Shown here: one piece after another, positions 16,518 to 64,000 of the stretch
Numbering within the stretch: the first letter of the stretch is position 1
Layout: each line of letters starts with the position of its first letter
Assembly: GCA_039000725.1 (NCBI GenBank)
Contig: JAWBNO010000001.1
Location: forward strand, 130,446 to 194,445
From: Candidatus Aenigmatarchaeota archaeon
Lineage (GTDB): Archaea > Aenigmatarchaeota > Aenigmatarchaeia > CG10238-14 > SpSt-28
Direction: 5' to 3'
DNA length: 64,000 bases
Made by a program: the position numbers and the translations under genes
The notes under the pieces: generated by a model
The model's input: the letters and a program-made list of their open reading frames with translations, nothing else
Told to the model about the DNA's origin: nothing
The model's database searches: none

Positions 16518-16613
16518 GCTGGGGTCGCCTAATCAGGTAGGGCGCCGGCCTCGAGTACAAAAGATAGCCGGTGGGGCTTTGGCCCTGTGTGGGTTCAAAT
16601 CCCACCCCCAGCG
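16518..16613 (+). tRNA. tRNA-Ser (anticodon CGA) with a short intron at the canonical 37/38 position
   Basis: Hand-folded. Acceptor gctgggg/ccccagc with G73. Anticodon stem ccggc/gccgg with loop ct-CGA-g...a. About 10 nt (16556-16565) interrupt the loop. Long variable arm tggggctttggccctgt. T arm gtggg-ttcaaat-cccac. GC-rich island. Confidence 0.85.
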
Positions 16614-18607: not shown

Positions 18608-18681
18608 TTTATTATTTTAATATCAGTGAAAAAACCTTATCCTTTTTTAAAATTATATATTAAAATTTTAAAATAAACTCT

Positions 18682-23639: not shown

Positions 23640-23761
23640 GGATTGGCGGCGACGTGGATTTCCCGCTCCATAACGGAGCAGTACTTTCCACACCTCCGGG
23701 AGGCTTAACTTCCGGGTTCGGAACGAGACCGGGTGTTTCCCTCCCGATCTGGCCGCCAACC
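23640..23761 (-). rRNA. rrf: 5S ribosomal RNA
   Basis: The reverse complement contains the universal 5S core acacccggtctcgttccgaacccggaagttaagcc. The terminal helix ttggcggc/gccgccaa closes the molecule. About 122 nt. Confidence 0.9.
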
Positions 23762-30091: not shown

Positions 30092-30204
30092 TAGCCCCGG
30101 GCGGATTCGAACCGCCGTCCCCGGGTTTCTTTCTCATCTAAATATCAAAGCTTTAGTCCTGCGAGACCAAAGCCCGGTATCCTTGGCCGCTAGACGACGG
30201 GGCT
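30092..30204 (-). tRNA. tRNA-Gln (anticodon UUG) with a ~40-nt intron
   Basis: The reverse complement starts agccccgtcgtctagcggccaaggat. A1-U72 is typical of archaeal tRNA-Gln. Anticodon stem ccggg/cccgg with loop ct-TTG-g...a. Intron about 30127-30166. T arm ggcgg-ttcgaat-ccgcc. Confidence 0.85.
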
Positions 30205-38620: not shown

Positions 38621-38732
38621 GCTGGGGTCGCCTAACCAGGTAGGGCGCCGGTCTTGAGTTATCAAGATCTGATGAAAATGAAGAAAACCGGTGGGCTTAA
38701 CGCCCGTGTGGGTTCAAATCCCACCCCCAGCG
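38621..38732 (+). tRNA. tRNA-Ser (anticodon UGA) with a 27-nt intron
   Basis: Its exons are nearly identical to tRNA-Ser(CGA) at 16518. Anticodon stem ccggt/accgg with loop ct-TGA-g...a. Intron 38659-38685. Long variable arm tgggcttaacgcccgt. T arm gtggg-ttcaaat-cccac. G73. Confidence 0.85.
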
Positions 38733-50993: not shown

Positions 50994-51335
50994 ATGTTAA
51001 AACAAGTTATAATAGTAAGAAAGGATTTAGATTGGAGCAAAGGTAAGCTAGCTGCACATGTAGCTCACGCTAGTTTAGAAGCAGCCCTAAGTGTTGATAG
51101 AGAATTATTAGAAAAATGGAGAAGGTCTGGTGCAAAAAAAGTTGTTCTTAAAGTTAAAGATCTAAAGGAGTTGAAAAAAATAGAAAAAGAGTTGAAAAAA
51201 GAAAAAATAAGTTATGTAAAAATTTCTGATGCTGGACTAACTCAATTAAGAAAAGGAACTATAACTTGTATAGGAATTGGACCTATAGAAGAAAAAAGAA
51301 TTGATAAAATAACTGGAAATTTAAGTCTTTTTTGA
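50994..51335 (+). CDS. pth2: Peptidyl-tRNA hydrolase, archaeal type (Pth2)
   Basis: 113 aa. Contains QVIIVRKDLDWSKGKLAAHVAHAS and DAGLTQL. Confidence 0.9.
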   Translation: MLKQVIIVRKDLDWSKGKLAAHVAHASLEAALSVDRELLEKWRRSGAKKVVLKVKDLKELKKIEKELKKEKISYVKISDAGLTQLRKGTITCIGIGPIEEKRIDKITGNLSLF

Positions 51336-51800
51336 AAGTTTATTTTTTAATAATATGTTTAATGCGCTTTCTATTATCCTTACTTGATCCTCTCTAGGAA
51401 TGTATAGGTATGTAGTATATTCGAAAACCTCTCTTACAACGTTATAAACATATAATATTGCGTCTGAATAACCTACTAGATAACAGTAAATAGCTAGCTG
51501 ATATTTTCCTTTTCTTTTTTGAAAATCTAGATTTTCTTTAAACCTATAAGTCTTAAGCTCTTCCACGACCTTTTTTTCTCTATCTACCCTGTCAGGAGAG
51601 CCATAAATTCTAATTGTATAACCATCATACATGATAACATTCTCATAAATTTTTTCATTTTCAAATCCCAAAATTTTATGATAATATTTTCCGTTTTCTG
51701 AGCTTTTGTGTCTCTTGTACTTTTCTTCTAACTTTAATTCATGTTCAATTAAAGAATTTACCAATCTTGTTACTGAGTAGGAAAAATCAACACTACCCAT
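51321..51800 (-). CDS. PD-(D/E)xK nuclease-superfamily protein, Cas4/RecB-like core without Fe-S cysteines
   Basis: 159 aa. IYGSPDRVD...VVEELKT provides D...ExK, and QLAIYCYLVGY provides a QxxxY motif. Confidence 0.5.
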   Translation of the reverse strand: MGSVDFSYSVTRLVNSLIEHELKLEEKYKRHKSSENGKYYHKILGFENEKIYENVIMYDGYTIRIYGSPDRVDREKKVVEELKTYRFKENLDFQKRKGKYQLAIYCYLVGYSDAILYVYNVVREVFEYTTYLYIPREDQVRIIESALNILLKNKLSKKT

Positions 51801-54359: not shown

Positions 54360-55691
54360 ATGGTGAAAGAAAAAATTGCAATAATTTTATCTTTTATTAT
54401 ATTTTTTATAACATACTATTTCTCTATAAATTCAAAAACTTACTGGTGGGATGAGGCTGTTTATTTAGGTTTGGCTAAAAACCTAGCAAAGAAATTTTCT
54501 TATTTCATAAACTATCAGTTTCCAGAAAAGTTAACAAACTACTATGGATACAAATTAGTTATAGATGAGTCATTTAGACAACCACTTTTTCCATTTTTGC
54601 TATCTGTTTTTTATTTTTTGGGAGAAAAGTTTCAAAGAGTTTTGCCACCTATTTTTGCTTCACTTTCTATATTTCTAACCTTTAAACTTGGAAAAAAAAT
54701 TAAAGATGAAAATTTAGGATTAATATCAGCTATTTTTTTATCTGTATCCCCTCTATTTCTTTTCTTTTCTTCTAAAATTCTAACAGAAAGTTTATCATCA
54801 TTTCTAATTGTTTCTTTCTTTTACTTCTTGACTTCATATAAAAACGACTTTAAATCTTTCTTTTTTTCATCTCTTTTTCTCTCTCTTTCAATTTTGACTA
54901 GATATACAAATTTTATTCTCTCTTTGCCTTTCCTTTTAGTATTCTTAAAATACAAAAATATTAAACATCTATTTTTAGCTGTTTTTATTGTTTTTTTAGT
55001 ATTTTTACCATTTCTTCTTTTTTCATATTATAGATATGGTAACCCATTTGAAGCCATTATTATTTCTTTTAAAGAGGCCTCAACAAAAAAATATTATCAG
55101 GAACCATTTTATTTTTACTTTATAAATTTAGTTCCAATTTTCGGCTTGCCAATTCTATTTTCCTTTTTTACAAAATTAAAAAAAGAAAACAAAATCTTAA
55201 TTTTTACAGTAATTTTAATTTTCTTAAGTTTTTCTATTCTTTCTAGAAAAGAATTTAGATATTTAGTTCCTTATTTTCCTTTGTTTTATATAGCTTCTTC
55301 CTTAGGGTTGGTTAATTTAGAAAAGAGCAAAAAAATTTGGATAATTGTTTTAGTCATAATTTTATTACAAATTTATCCTTGCTACAATCTTCTAACCATA
55401 AAAGAAGATAATTCAATTGTTTTGATTTCAAATTTCTTGAAAGATAAAGTTAGTGAAGATGATTTTGTAATTGCAGAAAATTATCCAGTTTTGAATTATT
55501 TAACTGGAGCAAAAGTTTTACCATACCCTAGCAGTATAGAAAACTTTTATAAATTATTAGAAATTTTTAAACCCAAATTTGCTGTTATTGACAAAGAAAT
55601 AACTTTACCAGAATATGCCAAAGAATTAGAAAAGTATGGCTTTGAAAAAATTTATGAAATAAATGAAATTAAAGTTTTGAAAATAGAATAA
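54360..55691 (+). CDS. GT-C fold glycosyltransferase (ArnT/PMT_2-like, GT39/83)
   Basis: 443 aa with more than 10 spans. The first-loop acidic motif is YWWDEAVYLGLAKNL. Confidence 0.75.
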   Translation: MVKEKIAIILSFIIFFITYYFSINSKTYWWDEAVYLGLAKNLAKKFSYFINYQFPEKLTNYYGYKLVIDESFRQPLFPFLLSVFYFLGEKFQRVLPPIFASLSIFLTFKLGKKIKDENLGLISAIFLSVSPLFLFFSSKILTESLSSFLIVSFFYFLTSYKNDFKSFFFSSLFLSLSILTRYTNFILSLPFLLVFLKYKNIKHLFLAVFIVFLVFLPFLLFSYYRYGNPFEAIIISFKEASTKKYYQEPFYFYFINLVPIFGLPILFSFFTKLKKENKILIFTVILIFLSFSILSRKEFRYLVPYFPLFYIASSLGLVNLEKSKKIWIIVLVIILLQIYPCYNLLTIKEDNSIVLISNFLKDKVSEDDFVIAENYPVLNYLTGAKVLPYPSSIENFYKLLEIFKPKFAVIDKEITLPEYAKELEKYGFEKIYEINEIKVLKIE

Positions 55692-55790: not shown

Positions 55791-56051
55791 TTACCTTTCT
55801 ATTAACCATTTCCACAACGGAATAAACTTAATTTTTTTATTTTCAATTTTCAATTCATCTTCATAATCCCAAGTTATTATTAACAAGTTTTTACATTTTA
55901 ATTGTTCACTAGCTTTAATTAATGCTCTTATTTCTCTTTTCTCTATTTCATCTTTACTAGAAGAATAAGTTACTTGAATTAATTGCTTTATTTCTAAACC
56001 TTCCTTTATAACGAAATCAACTTCATTTTGTTGATAATCTTTCCAATAGTA
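55791..56051 (-). repeat. Shared 3' module, copy 1 (long form, from YYWKDYQQNEVDF to the stop)
   Basis: Alignable by eye at nucleotide level with the other copies. Anchors: aaccatttcc, catcttcataatcccaagt, cactagctttt, acttgaattaattg, tttccaatagtaaat. Confidence 0.85.
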
Positions 56052-57065
56052 AATTTCAGCTAAGGGATTTTCGCTAATCTTTCTTTTAAGTTGCAAAAAT
56101 ACACAATTCTCCATTAACCTTCCAATATTTTCTGAAAATTTCGAAAATCTTTTTATGAAAAAATTATCAATAAACATAACTTTTCTTGGTGCTTTTAAAG
56201 AATTCTTTACTTTAGGTGTCAAAATCTCTAAAAATTCTACAAATAAAGAATTTTCTAAGTAGTAAAGATAGTTAGCAACTGTCTCTTTTCCTATTTTATG
56301 TCCAATAGATTTTAAAGTATCAAAAATTTTTGTTATGGTTATGTAAGTTGAGTTAAGTAAAAGTCTTATAAGATCCCTCATTAATTCTTTATTTCTTATA
56401 CCATAACGTTCAAAAATATCGCGAATAAGAAAAGTTTTGAAATATTCCTCAATAAGTAGATATTTTTTCGCTTCATCTGAGAGAACAATCTCAGGTAATC
56501 CACCAAAATTTATATACTCTCTTAATAGGTTTAATTTAAGAGCATTCGTTAATTCCTCTATATTTTCTCCTTTAAATCTTAAGAACTCTAAAAATGATAG
56601 TGGATAAACCTCAAAAGTTATACATCTTCCTCTCAATTCAGTTGGTATTTCTTTACTTGAAAGTTTTGATGATGAGCCAGATAAAATTATTTGATAATTA
56701 AAACTGTCTAACATTCTTCTTACCCATTTGCTCCAGTTAGGAATGTTTTGTATTTCATCTAACAAAAAAACAAGCTTTTTCTTTCCATAAATTTCTTTTA
56801 TAATCTCAGAAAAACAAGTCAAAACTTCTGTTTTCTTTGGCAATCTTTCATCTTCAAAATCTATATAAATTGTATTTTCTTTTCCTATTTTTCTTGCTGT
56901 ATTCAAAAGCAAAAATGTTTTTCCAACTCTTCTGAAACCAACTATTGGTATAGCCTTAACAATTTTCCAATCTATTAACTTACTAGGATCTTTATCTCTC
57001 TCAATTATCTTCGGTAACTCTCTTTCTTCCCATTCTTTCACAAGTTGTTTTAAAATTGTCTTCAT
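55791..57065 (-). CDS. COG1373-type AAA+ ATPase (AAA_14 - wHTH - DUF4143-like), array paralog 1
   Basis: 424 aa. Walker A GFRRVGKT, Walker B FLLDEIQ, sensor SGSSS, wHTH-like segment ITKIFDTLKSIGHKIGKETVANYLYYLENSLFV. Carries the shared C-terminal module YYWKDYQQNEVDFVIK...IPLWKWLIER. Confidence 0.85.
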   Translation of the reverse strand: MKTILKQLVKEWEERELPKIIERDKDPSKLIDWKIVKAIPIVGFRRVGKTFLLLNTARKIGKENTIYIDFEDERLPKKTEVLTCFSEIIKEIYGKKKLVFLLDEIQNIPNWSKWVRRMLDSFNYQIILSGSSSKLSSKEIPTELRGRCITFEVYPLSFLEFLRFKGENIEELTNALKLNLLREYINFGGLPEIVLSDEAKKYLLIEEYFKTFLIRDIFERYGIRNKELMRDLIRLLLNSTYITITKIFDTLKSIGHKIGKETVANYLYYLENSLFVEFLEILTPKVKNSLKAPRKVMFIDNFFIKRFSKFSENIGRLMENCVFLQLKRKISENPLAEIYYWKDYQQNEVDFVIKEGLEIKQLIQVTYSSSKDEIEKREIRALIKASEQLKCKNLLIITWDYEDELKIENKKIKFIPLWKWLIER

Positions 57066-57081
57066 AAAAAATTAGTGTAGA

Positions 57082-57101
57082 ACAATATTTATAAATATTG
57101 T
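57082..57101. promoter_or_regulatory. Perfect 20-bp palindrome acaatattta/taaatattgt upstream of array paralog 1 (TATA-like core)
   Basis: Read directly. The centre lies about 27 nt upstream of the ATG at 57065. The core tttataaa resembles an archaeal TATA box. Confidence 0.55.
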
Positions 57102-57136
57102 ACTATAATACTAGATTTATAGAACAAAATAACAAA

Positions 57137-57379
57137 CTATTGCCTTTCTATTAACCATTTCCATAATGGAAGGCATTTAATTTTTTTGTTCTGAACATTT
57201 AACTCATCTTCATAATCCCAAGTTATTATTAACAAGTTTTTGCATTTTAATTGCTCAGAAGCTTTTAACAAAGCTTTTATTTCCCTTTTCTCAATCTCAT
57301 CTTTACTTGAAGCGTAAGTTGCTTGAATTAGTTGTTTTATTTCTAAACCATTTTTAATTAAAAAATCAACTTCGTAATC
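57137..57379 (-). repeat. Shared 3' module, copy 2 (short form, from DYEVDF)
   Basis: Same anchors as the other copies. Diverges from the long form upstream of the EVDF codons. Confidence 0.85.
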
Positions 57380-58417
57380 ATTTGATTTAAAATAAAAAAT
57401 TTCATTAACTTTTCCTTCAAGTTTTTTCTTTAAAAGCTGTATAGCAACTAAATTTTCAATTTTTTTACCAACATCTTTAGAAAATCTTGGCTCAATTTGA
57501 AAATATATATTATCAACCAAATAACTTTTTACTGGATATTTTGCTCTTTCTCTATATTTAAAAGAAAATCTTTTTATAGGGAAAACAAAAAGAGCCTCTT
57601 CCACATATTTTAAATAATTAGCTAGAGTTTTTTTACTAATTTTTAAACCTATTGATTTTAATTCATTTTCAATTTTTGATATTGAAACATAAGAGGAGGA
57701 ATTAGATATGCAATATCTAACAAAATAATCCATAAGTGCGACATTTTTAATTTTAAATCTTTCTATTATATCTTTGAAAAAAATTGCATCGAAATAAGTT
57801 TTTGCAATATCTAGCTTTTTATTTTTTTCTTCCTGCAAAATAATTTCCGGATATCCGCCAAAATCTATATATTCTTTCAATAATCCTAAAATTTTTCCAA
57901 TTTTTGCTTCAGAAATTTCTTTTTCTATTTTAAATTCTTTAAAATCAAGAAATTCTTTAAAGCTAAATGGAAATAAAACGAAAGAAATACATCTTCCCCT
58001 CAGCTCTGTTGAAATTTCCCTACTTAAAAGTTTTGAAGAAGAGCCAGAAATTATTATTTTATATTTTTGAAAATTATGCAATGTTCTAACAAAAGAAGAC
58101 CAATTATCGAGCTCTTGAATTTCATCGAAAAAAAGAAATATGTTATCTTTAAATAGGTAATTTATTTCTTTCAAAAATTCAGAAATACTAACTTTTTTTA
58201 TTCTGGGGTCTGTAAAATCTAAGTAAACAATATTTTCCTTAGTGAAATTCTTTTCAAAAAGCTCTTTAATAAGCTGAAACATAAAATAAGTTTTTCCAGC
58301 TCTTCTTGGTCCTATAATTGAAACTATATGATTGTTCATCCAAATTTTTAGCTCTCTTTTAATTATTCTTCTTGGCAATTCTTTCTCTTTCCATTCTAAT
58401 AAGACTTCTCTTAACAT
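57137..58417 (-). CDS. COG1373-type AAA+ ATPase, array paralog 2
   Basis: 426 aa. Walker A GPRRAGKT, Walker B FFDEIQ, sensor SGSSS. The shared C-terminal module begins at SNDYEVDFLIK. Confidence 0.85.
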   Translation of the reverse strand: MLREVLLEWKEKELPRRIIKRELKIWMNNHIVSIIGPRRAGKTYFMFQLIKELFEKNFTKENIVYLDFTDPRIKKVSISEFLKEINYLFKDNIFLFFDEIQELDNWSSFVRTLHNFQKYKIIISGSSSKLLSREISTELRGRCISFVLFPFSFKEFLDFKEFKIEKEISEAKIGKILGLLKEYIDFGGYPEIILQEEKNKKLDIAKTYFDAIFFKDIIERFKIKNVALMDYFVRYCISNSSSYVSISKIENELKSIGLKISKKTLANYLKYVEEALFVFPIKRFSFKYRERAKYPVKSYLVDNIYFQIEPRFSKDVGKKIENLVAIQLLKKKLEGKVNEIFYFKSNDYEVDFLIKNGLEIKQLIQATYASSKDEIEKREIKALLKASEQLKCKNLLIITWDYEDELNVQNKKIKCLPLWKWLIERQ

Positions 58418-58428
58418 AAAAGAAATAT

Positions 58429-58459
58429 AGGAAACAAAAAATATATATTTTTGTTTCCT
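58429..58459. promoter_or_regulatory. Inverted repeat aggaaacaaaaa-N7-tttttgtttcct upstream of array paralog 2
   Basis: 12-bp arms with the spacer atatata. The centre lies about 27 nt upstream of the ATG at 58417. Confidence 0.55.
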
Positions 58460-58469
58460 CTAGAAACTA

Positions 58470-58742
58470 CTATAAACTTAGAGTATTTCCTAGCAACCAT
58501 TTCCATAAAGGAATGCATTTAATACTTTTATTTTCAATTTTCAATTCATCTTCATAATCCCAAGTTATTATAAGCAAGTTTTTACACTTTAGTCCTTCAC
58601 TAGCTTTTAGTAAAGCTTTAATTTCTCTTTTTTCAATTTCATCTTTGCTAGATGCATAAGTTACTTGAATTAATTGTTTAACATCTAAATTTTCCTTTAT
58701 AACAAAATCAACTTCATTTTGTTGATAATCTTTCCAATAGTA
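58470..58742 (-). repeat. Shared 3' module, copy 3 (long form plus 6-codon tail)
   Basis: Same anchors. The extreme 3' segment is nearly identical to copy 4. Confidence 0.85.
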
Positions 58743-59759
58743 AATTTCCCAATCACTAAACCAATAACTTTTTCTTCTTAACAACTCTATTGCAACCAAA
58801 TTTTCCATTAGCCTACCTGTATTCTCACTAGTTAAAAATCCGGCAACACCAATTAACCCATTATCAATACAATAAACTTTTTTTGGTGCAACAAATTTTT
58901 GTTTTAATTTAAAACTAAATCTCTCAAGCTTTATTATCAAATAAGCTTCCTCCAATGCACTAACCCAATTAGAAATAGTAAACAAATGTTTTACTGTAGA
59001 AATCTCTTTTAAGGATGAATAAGTGAACTCTTTTGAAAAATTACTAACCAAAAATCTTGCTATTTTTCTCAACTCTTCTTCTCTTTTAATTTTTTCTCTT
59101 TTAACAACATCTTTTTCTATAATATCTTCATAAATTGTTTTTAGTATTTTTTTCCCAAATTTCGGAAATTCTGGAAACCCGCTGTTAAATAAATAATCCT
59201 TAAGATGGTTAAAAATTTGTGCCCTTTCTAGTGTTGTATATGCCTCTAAGTTTAAGTTATTATACACCAAAAACTCTCTAAAGCTAAATGGAAATAAAGT
59301 AAAATCAATATGTCTTCCTGTTAAATGAGTTGCTAATTCGCCAGATAAAAGTTTTGAATTGCTCCCAGTAATTATAACTTTTTTTGTTCTCCTCAATCTA
59401 TTAGCAAAAAGTTCCCAACCTTCAATATTTTGAATCTCATCTAAAACTATGTTCTCTATATTTCCATAAAGCTCATAAAATACTTGTAAAACTTTGTTTA
59501 AATCATCAGCTTTTAATCCCTTCAGTCTCTCATCATCAAAATTTATATAACCAAATTTTTGATCTTTTAAAACTTGCCAAGAGAGAACAGACTTGCCACA
59601 TCTCCTAACACCCAATATTGCTAGAATATTTGGATATTTCAAAAACTTTTGTAATTCTCTTGTTAATTCTCTTTCTATTATTTTTTCTTTCTCAAATATT
59701 TTTTCTATATCTTTTTCTTGCTCTAAAACAACTTCTTTTATTATTTCTTTTGAAAACAT
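58470..59759 (-). CDS. COG1373-type AAA+ ATPase, array paralog 3
   Basis: 429 aa. Walker A GVRRCGKS, Walker B VLDEIQ, sensor TGSNS. Shared C-terminal module with a 6-residue tail extension (GNTLSL). Confidence 0.85.
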   Translation of the reverse strand: MFSKEIIKEVVLEQEKDIEKIFEKEKIIERELTRELQKFLKYPNILAILGVRRCGKSVLSWQVLKDQKFGYINFDDERLKGLKADDLNKVLQVFYELYGNIENIVLDEIQNIEGWELFANRLRRTKKVIITGSNSKLLSGELATHLTGRHIDFTLFPFSFREFLVYNNLNLEAYTTLERAQIFNHLKDYLFNSGFPEFPKFGKKILKTIYEDIIEKDVVKREKIKREEELRKIARFLVSNFSKEFTYSSLKEISTVKHLFTISNWVSALEEAYLIIKLERFSFKLKQKFVAPKKVYCIDNGLIGVAGFLTSENTGRLMENLVAIELLRRKSYWFSDWEIYYWKDYQQNEVDFVIKENLDVKQLIQVTYASSKDEIEKREIKALLKASEGLKCKNLLIITWDYEDELKIENKSIKCIPLWKWLLGNTLSL

Positions 59760-59771
59760 ATATAATTATAT

Positions 59772-59798
59772 TAGAAAGCTTTTTTAAAAAGCTTTCTA
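59772..59798. promoter_or_regulatory. Inverted repeat tagaaagcttttt-t-aaaaagctttcta upstream of array paralog 3
   Basis: 13-bp arms with a 1-nt spacer. The centre lies about 26 nt upstream of the ATG at 59759. Confidence 0.55.
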
Positions 59799-59813
59799 TT
59801 TATATTATTAAAC

Positions 59814-60050
59814 CTAAAACAATAACCATTTCCATAAAGGAATGCATTTAATACTTTTATTTTCAATTTCCAATTCATCTTCATAATCCCAAGTAATTAT
59901 AAGCAAGTTTTTGCACTTTAGTTCTTCACTAGCTTTTAACAAAGCTTTAATTTCCCTTTTTTCAATTTCATCTTTACTAGATGCATAAGTAACTTGAATT
60001 AATTGCTTTATTTCTAAACCTTCTTTTATAACAAAATCAACTTCATAATC
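59814..60050 (-). repeat. Shared 3' module, copy 4 (short form)
   Basis: Same anchors. By hand count, about 9 differences from copy 3 over the first ~185 nt after the aaccatttcc anchor. Confidence 0.85.
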
Positions 60051-61082
60051 ATTGCTGACTAGATAGTAGAATTCAAGCAATGGATTTTTATTCTGTTTTC
60101 TCTTTAATTCTAAAAACACACAATTTTCCATTAACTTTCCAAAATCTTGTGAAAACTTTACAACCTTTGTTAAACCGTTGTCTACAACATAAATTTTCTT
60201 TGGCCAAGATTCTCTAATATGCACCTTTACAGAATACCTATTAAGAAAGAAAAACACTAAGGTATCATTTAATTTATCTAAATAATCATAAACTGTATCT
60301 TTTGAAACTTTTAAATTAGAAGATTTAGTTTTATCGTAAATAGACTTAATTGATACTTCTTTTGAAAAATTTTGCAGAACAAAATTAAGTAAAAATTTTG
60401 AAAAACCTATGTTTCTTATTTCATGTCTCTCTATAAAATCTCTAAACAAAATTAAATCGTAATATTGCTTAATTATATTAATCTTAATTTGGTCATTCAA
60501 TATTACCTCGGGGAAACCACCAAATTCAATATATTCTCTTAAATTTCTTTTTATCTCAACCTCCTTTTCTTTAGACAAAAATTTTTCAATAGAAATTTTT
60601 TTAGCATCCAAAAACTCTCTGAAGCTAAACGGAAATAATACATAACTTAAAGTTCTACCTCTAAGTTTTGTTGAAATCTCTTTACTTAAAAGTTTGGAAG
60701 AAGAACCAGTAATAACTATTTTATAAAGTTTAAGATCATGAATTTCTCTTATTATAATCTCCCAGTTTTTAACATTATGTATTTCATCTAAAAGTAAATA
60801 CTGTGGTTTTATTCCATAAATTTCTTCAAACAATCTTATCATTTCTCTTATATCTCTAAAATTCGCTCCAATTAAACGAGAATCTTCAAAATTTAAATAT
60901 AAGCTATTTGGTTTTAAGTTTTTTATTTGAAAAAGATAATAGGTCTTACCGGCTCTTCTAGGACCTATAATTGAAATTATAAAATTTGTATCCAATGGTA
61001 TTTCTAGTTCTCTTTTTATTATTTGTGGTTGAAATTCTTCATATTCCTTAAAAAAATCTATTAAAGCTTCCCTATTTATCAT
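59814..61082 (-). CDS. COG1373-type AAA+ ATPase, array paralog 4
   Basis: 422 aa. Walker A GPRRAGKT, Walker B LLDEIH, sensor TGSSS. The shared C-terminal module begins at SNDYEVDFVIK. Confidence 0.85.
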   Translation of the reverse strand: MINREALIDFFKEYEEFQPQIIKRELEIPLDTNFIISIIGPRRAGKTYYLFQIKNLKPNSLYLNFEDSRLIGANFRDIREMIRLFEEIYGIKPQYLLLDEIHNVKNWEIIIREIHDLKLYKIVITGSSSKLLSKEISTKLRGRTLSYVLFPFSFREFLDAKKISIEKFLSKEKEVEIKRNLREYIEFGGFPEVILNDQIKINIIKQYYDLILFRDFIERHEIRNIGFSKFLLNFVLQNFSKEVSIKSIYDKTKSSNLKVSKDTVYDYLDKLNDTLVFFFLNRYSVKVHIRESWPKKIYVVDNGLTKVVKFSQDFGKLMENCVFLELKRKQNKNPLLEFYYLVSNDYEVDFVIKEGLEIKQLIQVTYASSKDEIEKREIKALLKASEELKCKNLLIITWDYEDELEIENKSIKCIPLWKWLLF

Positions 61083-61098
61083 AATATAGTATATTAGG

Positions 61099-61142
61099 AA
61101 GGAAAATATATTTAAAAATTTTCCTTATAGCAAGGAAAATAT
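61099..61142. promoter_or_regulatory. aaggaaaat motif in triplicate upstream of array paralog 4: inverted pair 61099-61107 / 61118-61126 plus direct copy 61132-61140
   Basis: 9-bp arms with the spacer atatttaaaa. A third direct copy (aaggaaaatat) lies 25 nt further upstream. Confidence 0.5.
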
Positions 61143-61159
61143 TATTCCAGTTAAGATAA

Positions 61160-61417
61160 CTACTCTAATAACCATTTCCACAACGGAATAAACTTAATTT
61201 TTTTATTTTCAATTTCCAATTCATCTTCATAATCCCAAGTTATTATTAACAAATTTTTACATTTTAATAGCTCACTAGCTTTTATTAACGCTTTTATTTC
61301 CCTTTTTTCAATCTCATCTTTGCTAGAAGCATAAGTAACTTGAATTAATTGTTTAACATCTAAACCTTCTTTTATAACAAAATCAACTTCATTTTGTTGA
61401 TAATCTTTCCAATAGTA
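61160..61417 (-). repeat. Shared 3' module, copy 5 (long form)
   Basis: Same anchors. The extreme 3' segment ccacaacggaataaacttaatttttttattttcaatt is shared with copy 1. Confidence 0.85.
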
Positions 61418-62416
61418 AATCTCTTGAAGAGGGGTAGAATTTGTTTTTCTTAATAATTCAAGAAAGACTATGTTTTCCATCAACTTTCCGACATCTTTAG
61501 AAAATCTTACTAAAACTGAAATTCCTGTATCTACAACATATACTTTTTTTGGCCAGCTTCTTCTAATATAAATGCTTTTTGAAAATCTGTCAACAAAAAA
61601 GACATTTAATGTATCTTGCAACTTATCAATATAATCATAAAGAGTTTTATTAGTAAAGTTAACCCTTTCTCTTATAGTCTTTCCTATTTTATTTATACTA
61701 ATTTCTTTTCCAAAATTTTGAAAAACAAATTCAAATAAAAATCTTCCCAACTCAAAACTCTTTATTTTATGTCTTTCAACAAAATCTGAAAGAAAAATTT
61801 CATCAAAATATCTTTTTAATAATTTTTCTTTTTCATCACTAAAAACAACTTCTGGATATCCACCCTCTTTTAAGTATCTATCCAAGAATTTCAACAAACT
61901 TCCCTTTTCTTCAAAAGTATAGTTTTGCTTAATTTCAAAATTATTGGCAACCAAAAACTCTCTAAAACTAAATGGTAATAATAAATAGTTTATTGTCCTT
62001 CCTCTTAATTGAGTCGCTATTTCTTTTGGCAATAATTTAGAAGAAGATCCAGTAATGAAAACCTTATACTCTCTATCTATTAAAGTTCTCACTAAACTTT
62101 CCCAACCTTCAACAATTTGAATTTCATCGAGAAGAATAGTTTTTGGAGAAAAACCTTTAACCTCAACAAAAATTTTTAGTATTTCAAAAAAATCCTCTGC
62201 TCTAACATTTCTAAAAGCTAGATCTTCAAAATTTATGTAAAGGGAATCTTTGTATAAAGTGTTTAAAAGATAAAGCATGTACCATGTTTTTCCGGCCCTT
62301 CTCGGTCCTAAAATAGAAATTGCCTTATCTTTAACATCTTTTATTTCCAATTCTCTTTTAATTCCTTTAAACTTCTTTTCTCTTATGAAATAATCTTTTA
62401 TCAGTTCTTTATTCAT
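61160..62416 (-). CDS. COG1373-type AAA+ ATPase, array paralog 5
   Basis: 418 aa. Walker A GPRRAGKT, Walker B LLDEIQ, sensor TGSSS. The shared C-terminal module begins at YYWKDYQQNEVDF. Confidence 0.85.
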   Translation of the reverse strand: MNKELIKDYFIREKKFKGIKRELEIKDVKDKAISILGPRRAGKTWYMLYLLNTLYKDSLYINFEDLAFRNVRAEDFFEILKIFVEVKGFSPKTILLDEIQIVEGWESLVRTLIDREYKVFITGSSSKLLPKEIATQLRGRTINYLLLPFSFREFLVANNFEIKQNYTFEEKGSLLKFLDRYLKEGGYPEVVFSDEKEKLLKRYFDEIFLSDFVERHKIKSFELGRFLFEFVFQNFGKEISINKIGKTIRERVNFTNKTLYDYIDKLQDTLNVFFVDRFSKSIYIRRSWPKKVYVVDTGISVLVRFSKDVGKLMENIVFLELLRKTNSTPLQEIYYWKDYQQNEVDFVIKEGLDVKQLIQVTYASSKDEIEKREIKALIKASELLKCKNLLIITWDYEDELEIENKKIKFIPLWKWLLE

Positions 62417-62420
62417 AATA

Positions 62421-62446
62421 ATATAAATTCTATTAAAAATTTATAT
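62421..62446. promoter_or_regulatory. Weak A/T-only inverted repeat atataaat-N10-atttatat upstream of array paralog 5
   Basis: 8-bp arms made only of A/T, so this could be chance in this genome. Listed for completeness. Confidence 0.25.
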
Positions 62447-62476
62447 CCTTGAAATACAAATTTTCATAACAAAATA

Positions 62477-62737
62477 TTACCTTTCTAACAACCATTTCCA
62501 TAATGGTATGCATTTAATTGTTTTTTCATTAACTTTTAACTCATCTTCATAGTCCCATGTAATTATTTGCAAGTTTTTACATTTTAATAGCTCGCTAGCT
62601 TTTATTAACGCTTTTATTTCTCTTTTATCAATTTCATCCTTGCTTGAAACATAAGTTACTTGGATTAGTTGTTTAATATTTAATCCTTGTTTTATTACAA
62701 AATCGACCTCATTTTGCTGATAATCTTTCCAATAATA
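62477..62737 (-). repeat. Shared 3' module, copy 6 (long form, most diverged)
   Basis: Same anchors but with more substitutions (for example catagtcccatgtaattatttgc). Confidence 0.8.
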
Positions 62738-63736
62738 AACTTCTTTATAACCCTTTCTCAATAACTCTATAGCAACCAAGTTTTCAATTAATCTACCAAT
62801 ATTTTCAGAAAATTTAAAACTGGTAAAATTCGGGAAAGATAAATCCATTGAATAAACTTTCTTCTTAGATTTAATTTGATTTTTAATACTAAAAGAAAAT
62901 GCATCTAAATGAAAAATTAAATAAGCTTCTTTGAGATATTCGAAATAATTTTGAACAGTATGGACGCTTCTAAAATTAAGAATTTCATTTATTTTATTAA
63001 AACTTTGTAGAGTTGAAATATTAGAAATTAAATATCTTGCCAGCTCATAAATTTTTGATGAAAATCTTAAATTATATCTCTTAACGATGTCTTTAAATAT
63101 AATGCTATCGAAAAGCATTCTAACATAATTCTCCGGCCTATACTTTTCTATTACAACTTCTGGAAGCCCACCAATTTTTAAATATTCATTCAATAAATTT
63201 AGCAATTTTCCTCTTAATTCTTTTATTTCTAATTCTTCCTTTCTTATCTTAAAATCCTTTGCTTTTAAAAACTCTCTAAAGCTGAATGGAAAATTTTCTA
63301 TTTCAATATATCTTCCTGTTAAATGAGTTGCTAGTTCTTTGCTAAGTAATTTTGCATTAGAGCCAGTAATTATAATATTATAACCGCTTCTTTGCAATCT
63401 GTTTACAAAAAGTTCCCATTTTTCTAAATTTTGGATCTCATCAAAAAACAAAAAATTAACTTTTCCATATATTTCATGCAAATTTTTTAATATTTCATCA
63501 TAATCTTTAACCTCTACTAATCTCTCGTCATCAAAATTTACATAACCAAAGTTAAATTTTTTTATTAAATGAATTCCTAAAAATGATTTCCCACTTCTTC
63601 TTAATCCTATAATAACCTTTATTAATTTTGTATTGAGATATGGTATTATTTTCTCTATGTTTTCTCTTTCAATAAATTTTCCTTTAACAATTTCTTCAAC
63701 TTCAATTTTCTGTCTTAACAATACTTCTTTTATCAT
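62477..63736 (-). CDS. COG1373-type AAA+ ATPase, array paralog 6
   Basis: Walker A GLRRSGKS, Walker B FFDEIQ, sensor TGSNA, shared C-terminal module. Start placed at the ATG (MIKEVLL); the track's GTG start at 63751 adds 5 codons. Confidence 0.8.
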   Translation of the reverse strand: MIKEVLLRQKIEVEEIVKGKFIERENIEKIIPYLNTKLIKVIIGLRRSGKSFLGIHLIKKFNFGYVNFDDERLVEVKDYDEILKNLHEIYGKVNFLFFDEIQNLEKWELFVNRLQRSGYNIIITGSNAKLLSKELATHLTGRYIEIENFPFSFREFLKAKDFKIRKEELEIKELRGKLLNLLNEYLKIGGLPEVVIEKYRPENYVRMLFDSIIFKDIVKRYNLRFSSKIYELARYLISNISTLQSFNKINEILNFRSVHTVQNYFEYLKEAYLIFHLDAFSFSIKNQIKSKKKVYSMDLSFPNFTSFKFSENIGRLIENLVAIELLRKGYKEVYYWKDYQQNEVDFVIKQGLNIKQLIQVTYVSSKDEIDKREIKALIKASELLKCKNLQIITWDYEDELKVNEKTIKCIPLWKWLLER

Positions 63737-63743
63737 AAAATTA

Positions 63744-63775
63744 TACTGCACAAAAATTTATAAATTTATGCAGTA
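63744..63775. promoter_or_regulatory. Inverted repeat tactgca-N18-tgcagta upstream of array paralog 6
   Basis: 7-bp G/C-containing arms around the partly palindromic core caaaaatttataaattta. The centre lies about 23 nt upstream of the ATG at 63736. Confidence 0.5.
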
Positions 63776-63793
63776 CAACTTTTTAACTGAAAT

Positions 63794-63925
63794 TTAAAAT
63801 TTTAACAACCATTTCCATAAAGGGATACATTTAATCGTTTTATTATTAACTTTCAATTCATCTTCATAATCCCAAGTTATTACAAGCAAGTTTTTGCATT
63901 TTAGCTCTTCACTAGCTTTTAGTAA
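63794..63925 (-). repeat. Shared 3' module, copy 7 (solo, truncated)
   Basis: Matches the distal half of the module only. Confidence 0.75.
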
Positions 63926-63937
63926 ATAATTACCTTT
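63794..63937 (-). pseudogene. Truncated 3' remnant of a seventh COG1373-type ATPase paralog (C-terminal ~43 codons only)
   Basis: Hand translation gives (TGA)KGNYLLKASEELKCKNLLVITWDYEDELKVNNKTIKCIPLWKWLLKF*. Homology to the shared module runs about 63794-63925, then stops abruptly. There is no start codon and no ATPase part. Confidence 0.75.
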
Positions 63938-64000
63938 TCAACTTTAGTTTCAAAAAATTCTTTATGTGTTATTTCTCTAAAGACAGAATGTTCCAAATCA
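63919..64000 (-). CDS. 3' end of an unidentified gene running off the window (partial)
   Basis: The minus-strand frame is open from the window edge and reads ...DLEHSVFREITHKEFFETKVEKVIIY* with a TAA at 63919-63921. That stop lies inside the last few nt of the remnant block. Too short to identify. Confidence 0.35.
   Translation of the reverse strand, partial: DLEHSVFREITHKEFFETKVEKVIIY

What the first reader, a model, noticed from the sequence alone, without database searches (positions are those of the whole stretch)
57082..63775. Each array paralog has its own, sequence-distinct inverted repeat over a TATA-like core just upstream of its start
Each spacer holds a dyad centred roughly 17-30 nt upstream of the start codon. 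Most lie at 23-30 nt, where a leaderless archaeal promoter TATA/BRE would sit.
- 57082-57101: acaatattta/taaatattgt, a perfect 20-mer
- 58429-58459: aggaaacaaaaa-N7-tttttgtttcct
- 59772-59798: tagaaagcttttt-t-aaaaagctttcta
- 61099-61126: aaggaaaat-N10-attttcctt, plus a third direct copy at 61132
- 63744-63775: tactgca-N18-tgcagta
- 62421-62446: a weak A/T-only dyad

The arm sequences are unrelated to each other, just as the wHTH-like segments of the downstream proteins differ. This suggests paralog-specific operators, that is autoregulation by each protein's own wHTH.

Alternatively the dyads could be hairpin insulators or terminators for the preceding copy.
Basis: partly seen in the sequence, partly recalled or inferred. 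Interest (0 to 1): 0.75.

Follow-up and report, generated by a model that had tools for sequence, protein, structure and literature searches.

The report
Private three-part operators around TATA boxes
Six tandem copies of an uncharacterised ATPase-nuclease gene (a very common candidate antiviral gene) in a tiny hot-spring archaeon each carry their own conserved set of repeated DNA words around the promoter's TATA box, most likely a private switch through which each protein controls its own gene.

Summary
All six dyads sit at the stated coordinates, 17-30 nt upstream of the start codons of six minus-strand paralogues. They exceed dinucleotide shuffles and other spacers.

The genes encode AAA_14 + DUF4143 proteins, which PADLOC lists as candidate defence family PDC-S01. 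The host is a Candidatus Aenigmatarchaeota archaeon.

The dyads are part of a larger layout found across the family:
- half-site 1 (direct)
- about 5 nt
- half-site 2 (inverted, over the BRE position)
- a consensus TATA box centred about 26 nt before the ATG
- half-site 3 (direct, about -17)

Comparative evidence:
- Orthologues at 60-80% protein identity keep the sites at fixed distance while upstream flanks are unrelated.
- Arm changes are compensated.
- In 71 non-redundant family promoters, the three-site layout occurs in 31%, against 2% of controls.
- The elements are just as frequent when the upstream neighbour is divergent, so they are not terminators of the preceding copy.

An AlphaFold model shows an Orc1/Cdc6-like AAA+-lid-winged-helix module followed by a PD-(D/E)xK nuclease.

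Best reading: paralogue-specific operators mediating autoregulation, probably repression. The binder is inferred, not shown, and a test for winged-helix/operator covariation was inconclusive.

This is a new variant of a known kind and moderately interesting.

The parts
55791..57065 (-). Paralogue A, 424 aa, AAA_14 + DUF4143 (PADLOC PDC-S01)
57078..57085 (-). A half-site 3 (TTGTTCTA in gene orientation), between the TATA box and the ATG
   Evidence: coordinates derived from the sequence
57088..57095 (-). A TATA box TTTATAAA, centre 26.5 nt upstream of the ATG; core of the perfect 20-mer palindrome 57082-57101
57098..57105 (-). A half-site 2 (TAGTACAA, inverted copy, 7 of 8 matches)
   Evidence: I1-I3
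57120..57127 (-). A half-site 1 (TTGTTCTA, exact direct copy of site 3)
   Evidence: I3
57137..58417 (-). Paralogue B, 426 aa
58429..58440 (-). B half-site 3 (TTTTTGTTTCCT in gene orientation)
58441..58447 (-). B A/T core TATATAT (TATA-like), centre 27 nt upstream of the ATG
58448..58459 (-). B half-site 2 (AGGAAACAAAAA)
   Evidence: identical in orthologues at 80% protein identity
58462..58467 (-). B half-site 1 (GTTTCT; TTTCC in orthologues)
58470..59759 (-). Paralogue C, 429 aa
59772..59784 (-). C half-site 3 arm (AAAAAGCTTTCTA in gene orientation); inner part belongs to the T5A6 TATA-like core 59780-59790, centre -26
59786..59798 (-). C half-site 2 arm (TAGAAAGCTTTTT); no convincing site 1 in this short spacer
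59814..61082 (-). Paralogue D, 422 aa; AlphaFold model has AAA+ 1-165, lid 166-222, winged helix 225-300, PD-(D/E)xK 314-415
61099..61107 (-). D half-site 3 (ATTTTCCTT)
61109..61116 (-). D TATA box TTTAAATA, centre 30.5 nt upstream of the ATG
61118..61126 (-). D half-site 2 (AAGGAAAAT, inverted)
61132..61140 (-). D half-site 1 (ATTTTCCTT, exact direct copy of site 3)
   Evidence: (D1, I1)
61160..62416 (-). Paralogue E, 418 aa
62421..62429 (-). E half-site 3 (AATTTATAT)
   Evidence: I3
62436..62446 (-). E half-site 2 (ATATAAATTTT). It contains ATATAAAT (62439-62446), centred 26.5 nt before the ATG, which is the likelier TATA box here
   Evidence: I2, I3
62454..62464 (-). E half-site 1 (AAAATTTGTAT), 91% complementary to site 2
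   Evidence: (I2)
62477..63736 (-). Paralogue F, 419 aa from the ATG at 63736. The ORF list offers a GTG at 63751; the alignment supports the ATG
63744..63750 (-). F half-site 3 (TGCAGTA)
63757..63764 (-). F TATA box TTTATAAA, centre 24.5 nt upstream of the ATG
63769..63775 (-). F half-site 2 (TACTGCA)
63784..63791 (-). F candidate half-site 1 (TTCAGTTA, imperfect)
   Evidence: (L018 row)
63794..63940 (-). 3' remnant of a seventh paralogue; only the last ~45 codons are in frame

Best explanation
**What it is.** Each paralogue has its own leaderless-type archaeal promoter, with a consensus TATA box centred about 26 nt before the ATG. Three copies of a paralogue-specific 7-9 bp word are wrapped around it:
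- Site 1, direct, about one helical turn upstream of site 2.
- Site 2, inverted, about 10 bp upstream of the TATA centre. It overlaps the position where TFB reads the BRE.
- Site 3, direct, about 10 bp downstream of the TATA centre. It lies at about -17 from the ATG, where RNA polymerase is recruited and DNA melts.

**How it most likely works.** The product of the same gene is an Orc1/Cdc6-like AAA+-lid-winged-helix module fused to a PD-(D/E)xK nuclease. I propose that it binds these words through its winged helix as a dimer or higher oligomer. Occupying sites 2 and 3 would exclude TBP/TFB and polymerase. Each potentially toxic ATPase-nuclease would then hold its own level low and buffered. 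Private words would keep the six feedback loops insulated from each other.

**Shown here**
- The elements exist and are non-random.
- Their position relative to TATA and ATG is fixed.
- They are conserved with the downstream gene, with compensated arm changes.
- They do not depend on the upstream gene.
- The protein has a confidently predicted winged helix.

**Inferred**
- That the TATA box is used and the mRNA is leaderless.
- That the elements are bound by a protein.
- That the binder is the cognate paralogue.
- That the effect is repression.
For: **Statistics**
- Dyads verified and significant against shuffles and against other spacers.
- Family against controls: shuffle p <= 0.01 in 20-23% against 1%.
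- Three-site layout, 7-mers with at most 1 mismatch in total: 31% of 71 non-redundant family promoters against 2% of 230 controls, Fisher p = 6.5e-12. Shuffled family sequences give 2.3%.
- The two best 'control' triples turned out to be distant AAA_14/DUF4143 genes that the BLAST filter had missed.

**Geometry**
- Site 1 to site 2 centres about 12.5 nt apart; site 2 to site 3 about 20 nt, with the TATA box midway; site 3 at -17.
- Exact TTTAWAWA in 67 of 106 family promoters, centred -31 to -22 from the ATG. SD-like motifs occur in only 6%.

**Orthologues**
- The B operator is identical in genes at 80% protein identity whose further-upstream sequence is unrelated.
- The A operator changes on both arms: ACAATATT/AATATTGT becomes GTACAAAAAT/ATTTTTGTAC.
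- C-type changes from TAGAAAGC/GCTTTCTA to CACAAGC/GYTTGTG.

**Covariation**
- C-lineage alignment: 8 pairs changed on both sides.
- Covariation score 0.239 against a shuffled mean of 0.115 (0 of 500 shuffles as high) and 0.04-0.135 for slid controls.

**Independence from the upstream gene**
- Shuffle p <= 0.05 in 50% of genes with a divergent neighbour, 40% in tandem arrays, 48% with an unrelated same-strand neighbour.

**Protein**
- AlphaFold pLDDT 92.8, with a canonical winged helix: H225-237, H245-254, recognition helix 261-273, and a beta wing.
- Foldseek top hits are the archaeal AAA+ protein SSO1545 (2fna) and the Aeropyrum ORC1-DNA complex (2v1u).
- Among the six paralogues the winged helix is the most divergent region, at 30% identity. 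The last 77 residues are 86% identical.

**Parsimony**
- There is no other ORF in the 52-77 nt spacers. The only thing that co-varies with each promoter is its own gene.
- One bacterial homologue, on a Moraxella plasmid, repeats the layout: ATTGGAAA-4-TTTCCAAT-20-ATTGGAAA.
Against: - No binding data exist.
- Two scans that correlate operator similarity with protein-region similarity did not single out the winged helix. Peaks also appear at residues 31-50, 126-145, 196-225 and 356-385, so lineage signal dominates.
- The half-sites share a family-wide degenerate consensus, GGRAAAA. It resembles an archaeal BRE and is mirrored downstream of the TATA box. Part of the symmetry could therefore reflect general-factor sites.
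- The recognition helix of D is rather acidic (SKDTVYDYLDKLND).
- About 40% of family promoters show no clear triple under my criteria.
- C lacks a convincing site 1, and E is A/T-only and not individually significant.
- Five of six bacterial plasmid homologues gave no clear layout.
- The TSS is not mapped.
Confidence: 0.55

Rival explanations
1. The sites are operators, but the binder is not the gene's own product. It could be another paralogue, giving cross-regulation along the array, or an unlinked transcription factor.
For: - The position and conservation of the sites do not say who binds.
- L035 carries a site 1 (TGTCATA) that is the half-site of another lineage.
- The covariation scans did not single out the winged helix.
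Against: - Singleton genes with divergent or unrelated neighbours carry the same layout.
- At least 16 distinct half-site words with a stringent triple exist across small DPANN-type genomes. That would need as many dedicated regulators.
- Only the downstream gene co-varies with the promoter.
Confidence: 0.15
2. The repeats act as nucleic-acid structures. Candidates are RNA hairpins in read-through transcripts acting as terminators, insulators or processing sites, or DNA cruciforms, possibly with alternative 1:2 and 2:3 pairings.
For: - Stable predicted hairpins: B -13.3 kcal/mol (z = -4.1), C -13.1 (z = -4.0), F -19.0 (z = -5.7), E z = -3.1.
- T-runs follow several stems.
- G-U cells are common among the mismatches.
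- Site 2 can pair with either site 1 or site 3.
Against: - Equally frequent with divergent upstream neighbours, where no upstream transcript ends.
- The TATA box sits in the loop and the ATG lies about 26 nt downstream, so the gene's own mRNA would not contain the sites.
- A direct third copy is not needed for a terminator.
- A and D fold weakly (z = -1.1 and -1.8).
- From established knowledge of archaeal transcription, termination needs oligo-T and not a hairpin.
Confidence: 0.1
3. It is a symmetric promoter: a BRE, a palindromic TATA box and an inverted BRE. It is read by the general factors in both directions, giving sense mRNA plus an upstream-directed antisense or non-coding transcript.
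For: - Family-wide consensus upstream of the TATA box is GGRAAAA, which is VRAAA-like as in BREs. Its mirror TTTTTKCC lies downstream. Control promoters lack this.
- The TATA boxes are themselves palindromic, for example TTTATAAA.
Against: - The lineage-specific outer 3-5 nt of each arm lie beyond the 6-7 bp BRE footprint, yet are mirrored and compensated. Examples are TATGAC, ATAGGG, TACTGC and CACAAG.
- A general factor would select one consensus rather than at least 16 distinct words.
- Site 1 is unexplained by this model.
Confidence: 0.1
4. The dyads are chance products of extreme A+T richness and of quasi-palindromic TATA boxes.
For: - The spacers are 12-19% G+C.
- E is A/T-only, with shuffle p = 0.06-0.08.
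- One unrelated spacer has a 10-nt A/T dyad.
Against: - Dinucleotide shuffles, window spacers, 230 control promoters and 86 AT-matched controls all reject this.
- The arms contain G/C positions that are conserved and compensated across genomes.
Confidence: 0.02

Closest known systems
Autoregulated archaeal winged-helix repressors with palindromic operators over BRE/TATA/TSS (for example Phr, LrpA, MDR1, TrmB/TrmBL1, NrpR with GGAA-N6-TTCC, SurR). Recalled from my own knowledge, not tested here.
   Same: - Dyad-symmetric sites placed over or beside the TATA box and start site of the regulator's own leaderless-type promoter.
- The expected mechanism is exclusion of TBP/TFB or RNA polymerase.
   Different: - Those regulators are small dedicated transcription factors. 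Here the presumed binder is a 420-aa AAA+ ATPase-winged helix-nuclease.
- The site set is three half-sites (direct, inverted, direct) rather than one palindrome.
- Many paralogues per genome each have a private word.
Controller (C) proteins and C-boxes of restriction-modification systems (my own knowledge)
   Same: - Operator repeats in front of the gene give feedback control of a potentially toxic nuclease.
- Operator sequences differ between systems, which limits cross-talk.
   Different: - C proteins are separate small HTH proteins in bacteria with sigma-70 promoters and two full dyads.
- Here the DNA-binding domain would be part of the ATPase-nuclease itself, and the promoter is archaeal.
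Orc1/Cdc6 and origin recognition boxes at archaeal origins
   Same: - AAA+-lid-winged helix fold. Foldseek's second hit is the Aeropyrum ORC1-DNA complex 2v1u.
- Inverted recognition elements flank an A/T-rich core next to the protein's own gene.
   Different: - The A/T core is only 7-18 bp and is a TATA box at fixed distance from an ATG.
- There are six such units in tandem.
- The protein carries a C-terminal PD-(D/E)xK nuclease.
- No ORB consensus was sought or seen.
PADLOC PDC-S01 (AAA_14 + DUF4143; COG1373) candidate defence genes
   Same: All six proteins match PDC-S01 model PDLC04787 at E = 1e-92 to 1e-113 over their full length. They also match Pfam AAA_14 + DUF4143.
   Different: - PDC-S01 is only a candidate family. 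It was described as the fourth most common defence candidate, with no mechanism (PMC12988326).
- No promoter or operator feature was found in the literature searches.
Intrinsic (hairpin + U-tract) terminators
   Same: Stable stems, some followed by T-runs, lie between tandem genes.
   Different: - They travel with the downstream gene and occur with divergent neighbours.
- A TATA box sits in the loop.
- There is a third, direct copy.

Membership tests
PDC-S01 / AAA_14 + DUF4143 | Full-length match to the family HMMs | tested here: met
   - PADLOC PDLC04787 at E = 2e-92 to 7.5e-113.
- Pfam PF13173 at E about 1e-33 to 1e-36, and PF13635 at E = 1e-16 to 1e-26.
PDC-S01 / AAA_14 + DUF4143 | Protection against viruses | not testable with these tools
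   The family is unvalidated even in the literature (PMC12988326). The neighbours in the window are glycosyltransferases, not an obvious defence island.
Archaeal BRE/TATA promoter of a leaderless mRNA | TATA box (TTTAWAWA-like) centred about 26 nt upstream of the start | tested here: met
   - Window centres are at -24.5 to -30.5.
- Family: 62 of 72 exact hits are centred -31 to -22.
Archaeal BRE/TATA promoter of a leaderless mRNA | Purine-rich BRE abutting the TATA box on the upstream side only | tested here: inconclusive
   GGRAAAA is present upstream, but its mirror image is also present downstream.
Archaeal BRE/TATA promoter of a leaderless mRNA | Transcription start at or within a few nt of the ATG | not testable with these tools
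   No transcript data are available. Only 6% of family promoters have an SD-like motif.
Autoregulatory operator of a winged-helix protein | Repeated or dyad-symmetric site overlapping the core promoter, conserved among orthologues | tested here: met
Autoregulatory operator of a winged-helix protein | The gene product contains a DNA-binding winged helix | tested here: met
   - AlphaFold model with pLDDT 92.8 and a canonical winged-helix topology at residues 225-300.
- Structural match to the ORC1-DNA complex.
- This is a prediction only; DNA binding was not tested.
Autoregulatory operator of a winged-helix protein | Specificity residues co-vary with operator bases | tested here: inconclusive
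   - All-pairs scan: the H2-H3 region has partial rho 0.12-0.14.
- 53 independent sister pairs: residues 251-290 have partial r 0.24-0.32.
- Other regions peak equally or higher in both scans.
Autoregulatory operator of a winged-helix protein | Cognate protein binds the site and changes transcription | not testable with these tools
   Needs EMSA, footprinting or in vitro transcription.
Intrinsic terminator of the preceding gene | Element is tied to the 3' end of an upstream co-oriented gene | tested here: not met
   Shuffle p <= 0.05 in 50% of 30 genes with a divergent upstream neighbour, against 40% of 48 genes in tandem arrays. B orthologues keep the element in unrelated upstream contexts.
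Orc1/Cdc6-ORB replication origin | Long A/T-rich unwinding element flanked by ORB repeats, one per replicon region | tested here: not met
   The A/T cores are 7-18 bp and six units lie in 8 kb. Only the fold similarity is met.

The most novel reading that the evidence does not exclude
The array is a germline library of sequence-reading immune sensors.
- Each PDC-S01 paralogue's winged helix reads a private 7-9 bp word.
- The three copies of that word around its own TATA box make the gene self-titrating.
- Foreign DNA rich in the word draws the protein off its promoter. That de-represses the gene and becomes the substrate on which the AAA+ motor and PD-(D/E)xK nuclease act.
- Winged helix and operator co-diversify, in the way restriction specificities diversify.
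Probability: 0.12. Interest if true: 0.85.

Novelty: new variant of a known kind. Interest (0 to 1): 0.62.

Why it matters
- PDC-S01 (AAA_14 + DUF4143) is reported as the fourth most common candidate defence family in prokaryotes and is especially abundant in archaea. It has no known mechanism or regulation (PMC12988326).
- A conserved, lineage-specific three-word operator around its promoter gives the first concrete handle on the family. It predicts that these proteins are sequence-specific DNA binders whose specificity has diversified many times.
- It supplies, for each gene, a candidate recognition word that can be tested directly by gel shift.
- It is also a clean natural set of dozens of orthogonal archaeal promoter/operator pairs. 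That is useful for studying how repressors compete with TBP/TFB on leaderless promoters, and possibly for synthetic circuits in archaea.
- If the binder is not the cognate protein, the finding reduces to a well-conserved but ordinary promoter motif.

Tried and rejected
1. **Whole-family alignment of upstream regions (A3).** MAFFT aligned the TATA boxes, but the half-sites fall out of register because spacing varies. Column-based covariation was therefore done only on the C lineage (A4).
2. **Correlating operator k-mer sharing with identity of protein segments.** I used all pairs and 53 independent sister pairs. The winged-helix H3/wing region is among the peaks. So are the Walker A region, the lid and part of the nuclease domain. 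Lineage signal dominates, so the result is inconclusive.
3. **Looking for extra copies or avoidance of the half-sites in the window.** There is no avoidance. The excess of TTTTCCTT is probably due to coding bias. The window is too small to judge full dyads.
4. **Database annotation.** NCBIfam gave no hit. A PDB sequence search gave no hit. Rfam found nothing in the spacers.
5. **Literature on DUF4143, COG1373, PDC-S01 and AAA_14.** Only catalogue mentions; nothing on promoters or regulation.
6. **Bacterial plasmid homologues.** One of six (Moraxella) shows the tripartite layout. The rest are unclear. The sample is too small to generalise.
7. **Scanning viral contigs for the dyads.** Considered and not run. 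From my own estimate, a 16-base A/T-rich palindromic pattern would give hundreds of chance hits and would re-find family promoters.
8. **The bacterial promoter/terminator scanner.** Not used, because the organism is archaeal.

Full report
**Context**

- The window is archaeal. It contains three intron-containing tRNAs and a 5S rRNA next to tRNA-Asp, and is 27.7% G+C.
- The nearest genomes are Candidatus Aenigmatarchaeota MAGs from hot springs. They include one at 98-99.5% protein identity, JAVZSS.
- The finding lies in a tandem array of six complete genes on the minus strand:
  - A 55791-57065
  - B 57137-58417
  - C 58470-59759
  - D 59814-61082
  - E 61160-62416
  - F 62477-63736
- A 3' remnant of a seventh copy lies at 63794 to about 63940.
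- All six genes encode AAA_14 + DUF4143 proteins. They match PADLOC's candidate single-gene defence family PDC-S01 at E = 1e-92 to 1e-113.
- The literature holds only catalogue mentions of this family. PDC-S01 is called the fourth most common defence candidate, is enriched in archaea, and is unvalidated (PMC12988326).
- The paralogues are 30-48% identical over the first three quarters of the protein and 86% identical over the last 77 residues.
- At DNA level the last ~250 nt are 84% identical. Identity collapses immediately after each stop codon.

**Check of the observation**

- Because the genes are on the minus strand, each 52-77 nt spacer lies upstream of one gene's ATG and downstream of the previous gene's stop.
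Perfect arm lengths are 10 (A), 12 (B), 13 (C), 9 (D), 9 (E) and 7 nt (F). A and F extend to 19- and 18-nt arms at 83-84% complementarity.
- Dyad centres lie 26.5, 27, 26, 30.5, 17.5 and 23.5 nt before the ATG.
- Against 1000 dinucleotide shuffles, the composition-weighted score is exceeded with p <= 0.011 for A, B, C, D and F, and p = 0.08 for E.
- Other non-tRNA spacers in the window have best perfect arms of 4-7 nt, with one A/T-only exception.
E is not individually significant.

**What the element really is**

I collected 76 loci that encode relatives. I called family genes and start codons by alignment to the window paralogues. I then compared 106 distinct upstream regions, which form 71 clusters after removing near-duplicates, with 230 upstream regions of unrelated genes from the same contigs and the window.

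*Dyads are a family trait.*
- Shuffle p <= 0.05 in 39-44% of family regions against 9% of controls.
- Shuffle p <= 0.01 in 20-23% against 1%.
- Mann-Whitney p = 3e-10 to 2e-16.
- AT-matched controls give 6% and 0%.

*Their centres fall in two classes.* Among the 47 family dyads with shuffle p <= 0.05, 29 have centres at -30 to -20 and 8 at -45 to -40.

*The two classes are two faces of one layout.*
- The layout is three half-sites: site 1 (direct), site 2 (inverted) and site 3 (direct, same word as site 1).
- Using 7-mers with at most one mismatch in total, this triple occurs in 31% of non-redundant family promoters.
- It occurs in 2% of controls and in 2.3% of shuffled family sequences. Fisher p = 6.5e-12.
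- The two best 'control' triples proved to be distant AAA_14/DUF4143 genes that my filter had missed.

*Geometry.*
- Site 1 to site 2 centres are about 12.5 nt apart.
- Site 2 to site 3 centres are about 20 nt apart, with the TATA box midway.
- Site 3 is centred at -17 from the ATG.

A, B, E and, imperfectly, F also have a site 1. C does not. Coordinates are in the parts list.

**Promoter context**

- An exact TTTAWAWA occurs in 67 of 106 family promoters. Of 72 hits, 62 are centred -31 to -22 from the ATG. SD-like motifs are rare, at 6%.
- From established knowledge, archaeal TATA boxes sit about 26-27 nt upstream of the transcription start. This fits leaderless or near-leaderless mRNAs. The start itself is not mapped.
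- Site 2 occupies the BRE position.
- A position table anchored on the TATA box shows a family-wide degenerate consensus, GGRAAAA, upstream and its mirror, TTTTTKCC, downstream. Control promoters lack it.
- So the arms are not wholly unrelated. B and D share AGGAAA. Lineage-specific bases lie mostly in the outer 3-5 nt.

**Conservation and compensation**

- Orthologues keep the elements at fixed distance from the ATG while sequence further upstream is unrelated.
- The 47 nt before the B start codon, operator included, are essentially identical in genes at 80% protein identity from four other genomes with different upstream contexts.
- A-type arms change on both sides, from ACAATATT/AATATTGT to GTACAAAAAT/ATTTTTGTAC at 70% protein identity.
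- C-type arms change from TAGAAAGC/GCTTTCTA to CACAAGC/GYTTGTG.
- D-type triples change in concert, from TTTTCCTT to TTGTCCTT at sites 1 and 3.
- On an in-register alignment of ten C-lineage promoters:
  - 8 of 19 pairs have changes on both sides.
  - The covariation score is 0.239, against a shuffled mean of 0.115 (0 of 500 shuffles as high).
  - Slid controls give 0.04-0.135.
- The sequences are related, so this is supportive rather than a formal probability.
- Arrays in other Aenigmatarchaeota also give each paralogue a private word. One contig (L004) has five tandem genes with perfect dyads of 6, 13, 16, 13 and 17 nt.

**Terminator or insulator of the preceding copy?**

No.
- The dyads are as frequent when the upstream neighbour is divergent as in tandem arrays. 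The figures are 30 genes with 50% at p <= 0.05, against 48 genes with 40%. After unrelated co-oriented genes the figure is 48%.
- The B orthologues show the element travelling with the downstream gene.
- The stems are stable as RNA: B z = -4.1, C z = -4.0, F z = -5.7, E z = -3.1.
- However, with the TATA box in the loop and the ATG about 26 nt downstream, the gene's own mRNA would not contain them. A direct third copy also has no role in a terminator.

**The protein**

- An AlphaFold2 model of D, built on a 70-sequence alignment, is confident: pLDDT 92.8, pTM 0.91. It shows four modules:
  - an AAA+ core, residues 1-165
  - a helical lid, 166-222
  - a canonical winged helix: H225-237, H245-254, recognition helix 261-273 and a beta wing to about 300
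  - a PD-(D/E)xK fold, 314-415
- The best PDB matches are the archaeal AAA+ protein SSO1545 (2fna) and the Aeropyrum ORC1-DNA complex (2v1u).
- The recognition helix has the common pattern S/G-K-x-T-(V/L)-x-x-(Y/W)-(L/I). T263 and the aromatic residue are conserved. Positions 260-262, 265, 266 and 269-270 differ between paralogues.
- The winged helix is the least conserved region among the six copies, at 30% identity.

**Who binds?**

This is the inferred step.
- The spacers hold no other ORF. The only feature that co-varies with each promoter is its own gene.
- At least 16 distinct words with stringent triples occur in small genomes.
- The product carries a winged helix.
- Parsimony therefore favours cognate autoregulation. 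The position of sites 2 and 3 favours repression by exclusion of TBP/TFB and RNA polymerase.
- I tried to test covariation between protein and operator. In an all-pairs scan, the H2-H3 segment predicted shared operator 7-mers better than the ATPase, nuclease or C-terminal regions taken as whole regions (partial rho 0.14).
- Sliding windows also peaked at residues 31-50, 126-145 and 201-225.
- With 53 independent sister pairs, residues 251-290 formed the broadest plateau (partial r 0.24-0.32). Residues 36-50, 196-210 and 356-385 were as high.
- This is inconclusive.
- One anecdote: the helix motif T(L/V)I(E/D/K)(F/Y) accompanies the word GAACAA in three groups. Their independence was not established.

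**Rivals**

- Another binder, or cross-regulation: confidence 0.15.
- Nucleic-acid structure: 0.10.
- A symmetric, bidirectional BRE-TATA-BRE promoter: 0.10. The mirror consensus supports it. The mirrored, compensated, lineage-specific outer bases and site 1 argue against it.
- Chance: 0.02, and only E remains open.

**Comparison with known systems**

- Functionally, the layout resembles operators of autoregulated archaeal winged-helix repressors, and the C-box control of restriction-modification nucleases.
- Structurally, the protein resembles Orc1/Cdc6, which also reads inverted boxes flanking an A/T-rich core beside its own gene.
- It is not a replication origin, not a terminator, and not a member of any described regulator family. 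Membership in PDC-S01/AAA_14-DUF4143 is met by HMM.
- I found no description of promoter elements for this family.
- One bacterial homologue, on a Moraxella plasmid, shows the same tripartite layout, ATTGGAAA-4-TTTCCAAT-20-ATTGGAAA. Five others were unclear.

**Verdict**

- The promoter/operator interpretation is well supported.
- The terminator alternative is rejected.
- The identity of the binder and the sign of regulation are inferred.
- This is a new variant of a known kind. Interest is moderate to fairly high, because it gives a testable handle on an abundant, uncharacterised candidate defence family.

Noticed in passing
window 55791-63736 (last ~250 nt of each of the six CDS): The 3' ends of all six paralogues are 84% identical in DNA and 86% in protein. 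The rest of each gene is 30-48% identical in protein. Identity collapses right after each stop codon. The same C-terminus (…TWDYEDEL…IPLWKWLL) is kept in relatives from other genomes.
   Followed up: partly
window 63794-63940 (-): 3' remnant of a seventh paralogue. Only the last ~45 codons are in frame and stops lie upstream. Its stop is at 63794-63796, so F's spacer is really 63737-63793.
   Followed up: yes
L001 3551-4837 versus window 54360-55691: The closest relative (JAVZSS, 98-99.5% protein identity) has an extra paralogue downstream of A. It has its own operator. The window has a convergent glycosyltransferase gene there. Array content therefore differs between near-identical genomes.
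   Followed up: partly
L004 3125-10137 (JAHLMP010000001.1): Five tandem paralogues have private perfect dyads of 6, 13, 16, 13 and 17 nt around their TATA boxes. B-like and A-like genes are adjacent in the same order as in the window.
   Followed up: partly
L078 about 260-355 (Moraxella osloensis plasmid pYHS3): A bacterial homologue at 30% identity has ATTGGAAA-4-TTTCCAAT-20-ATTGGAAA upstream of its start. This is the same direct-inverted-direct layout. Five other bacterial plasmid homologues were unclear.
   Followed up: partly
L008 3371-4768 (-): A gene of the related archaeal ATPase_2 + DUF234 family shows a weaker three-site pattern upstream. The layout may extend to that family.
   Followed up: no
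family promoters, positions -9..-3 and +8..+15 relative to the TATA box: A family-wide degenerate mirror consensus, GGRAAAA - TTTAWAWA - TTTTTKCC, is absent from control promoters. The upstream half looks like a BRE.
   Followed up: partly
L023_283, L034_6001, L004_3125; L002_3209, L046_5974; L015_6001: The recognition-helix motif T(L/V)I(E/D/K)(F/Y) co-occurs with the half-site GAACAA in three groups. This could be convergence. The independence of the groups was not tested.
   Followed up: no
window 18608-18681: A divergent spacer holds a perfect 10-nt A/T-only dyad, TTTTAAAATT-N9-AATTTTAAAA. It is the only comparable dyad outside the array.
   Followed up: no
window 16518-16613, 30092-30204, 38621-38732; 23641-23760: Three tRNA genes are long enough to carry introns. 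Rfam finds them but ARAGORN misses them. A 5S rRNA gene lies beside tRNA-Asp.
   Followed up: no
window 51321-51800 (-): A small 159-aa protein has a weak PD-(D/E)XK (PDDEXK_1) match. It lies a few kb from the array, among glycosyltransferase and glycoside hydrolase genes.
   Followed up: no
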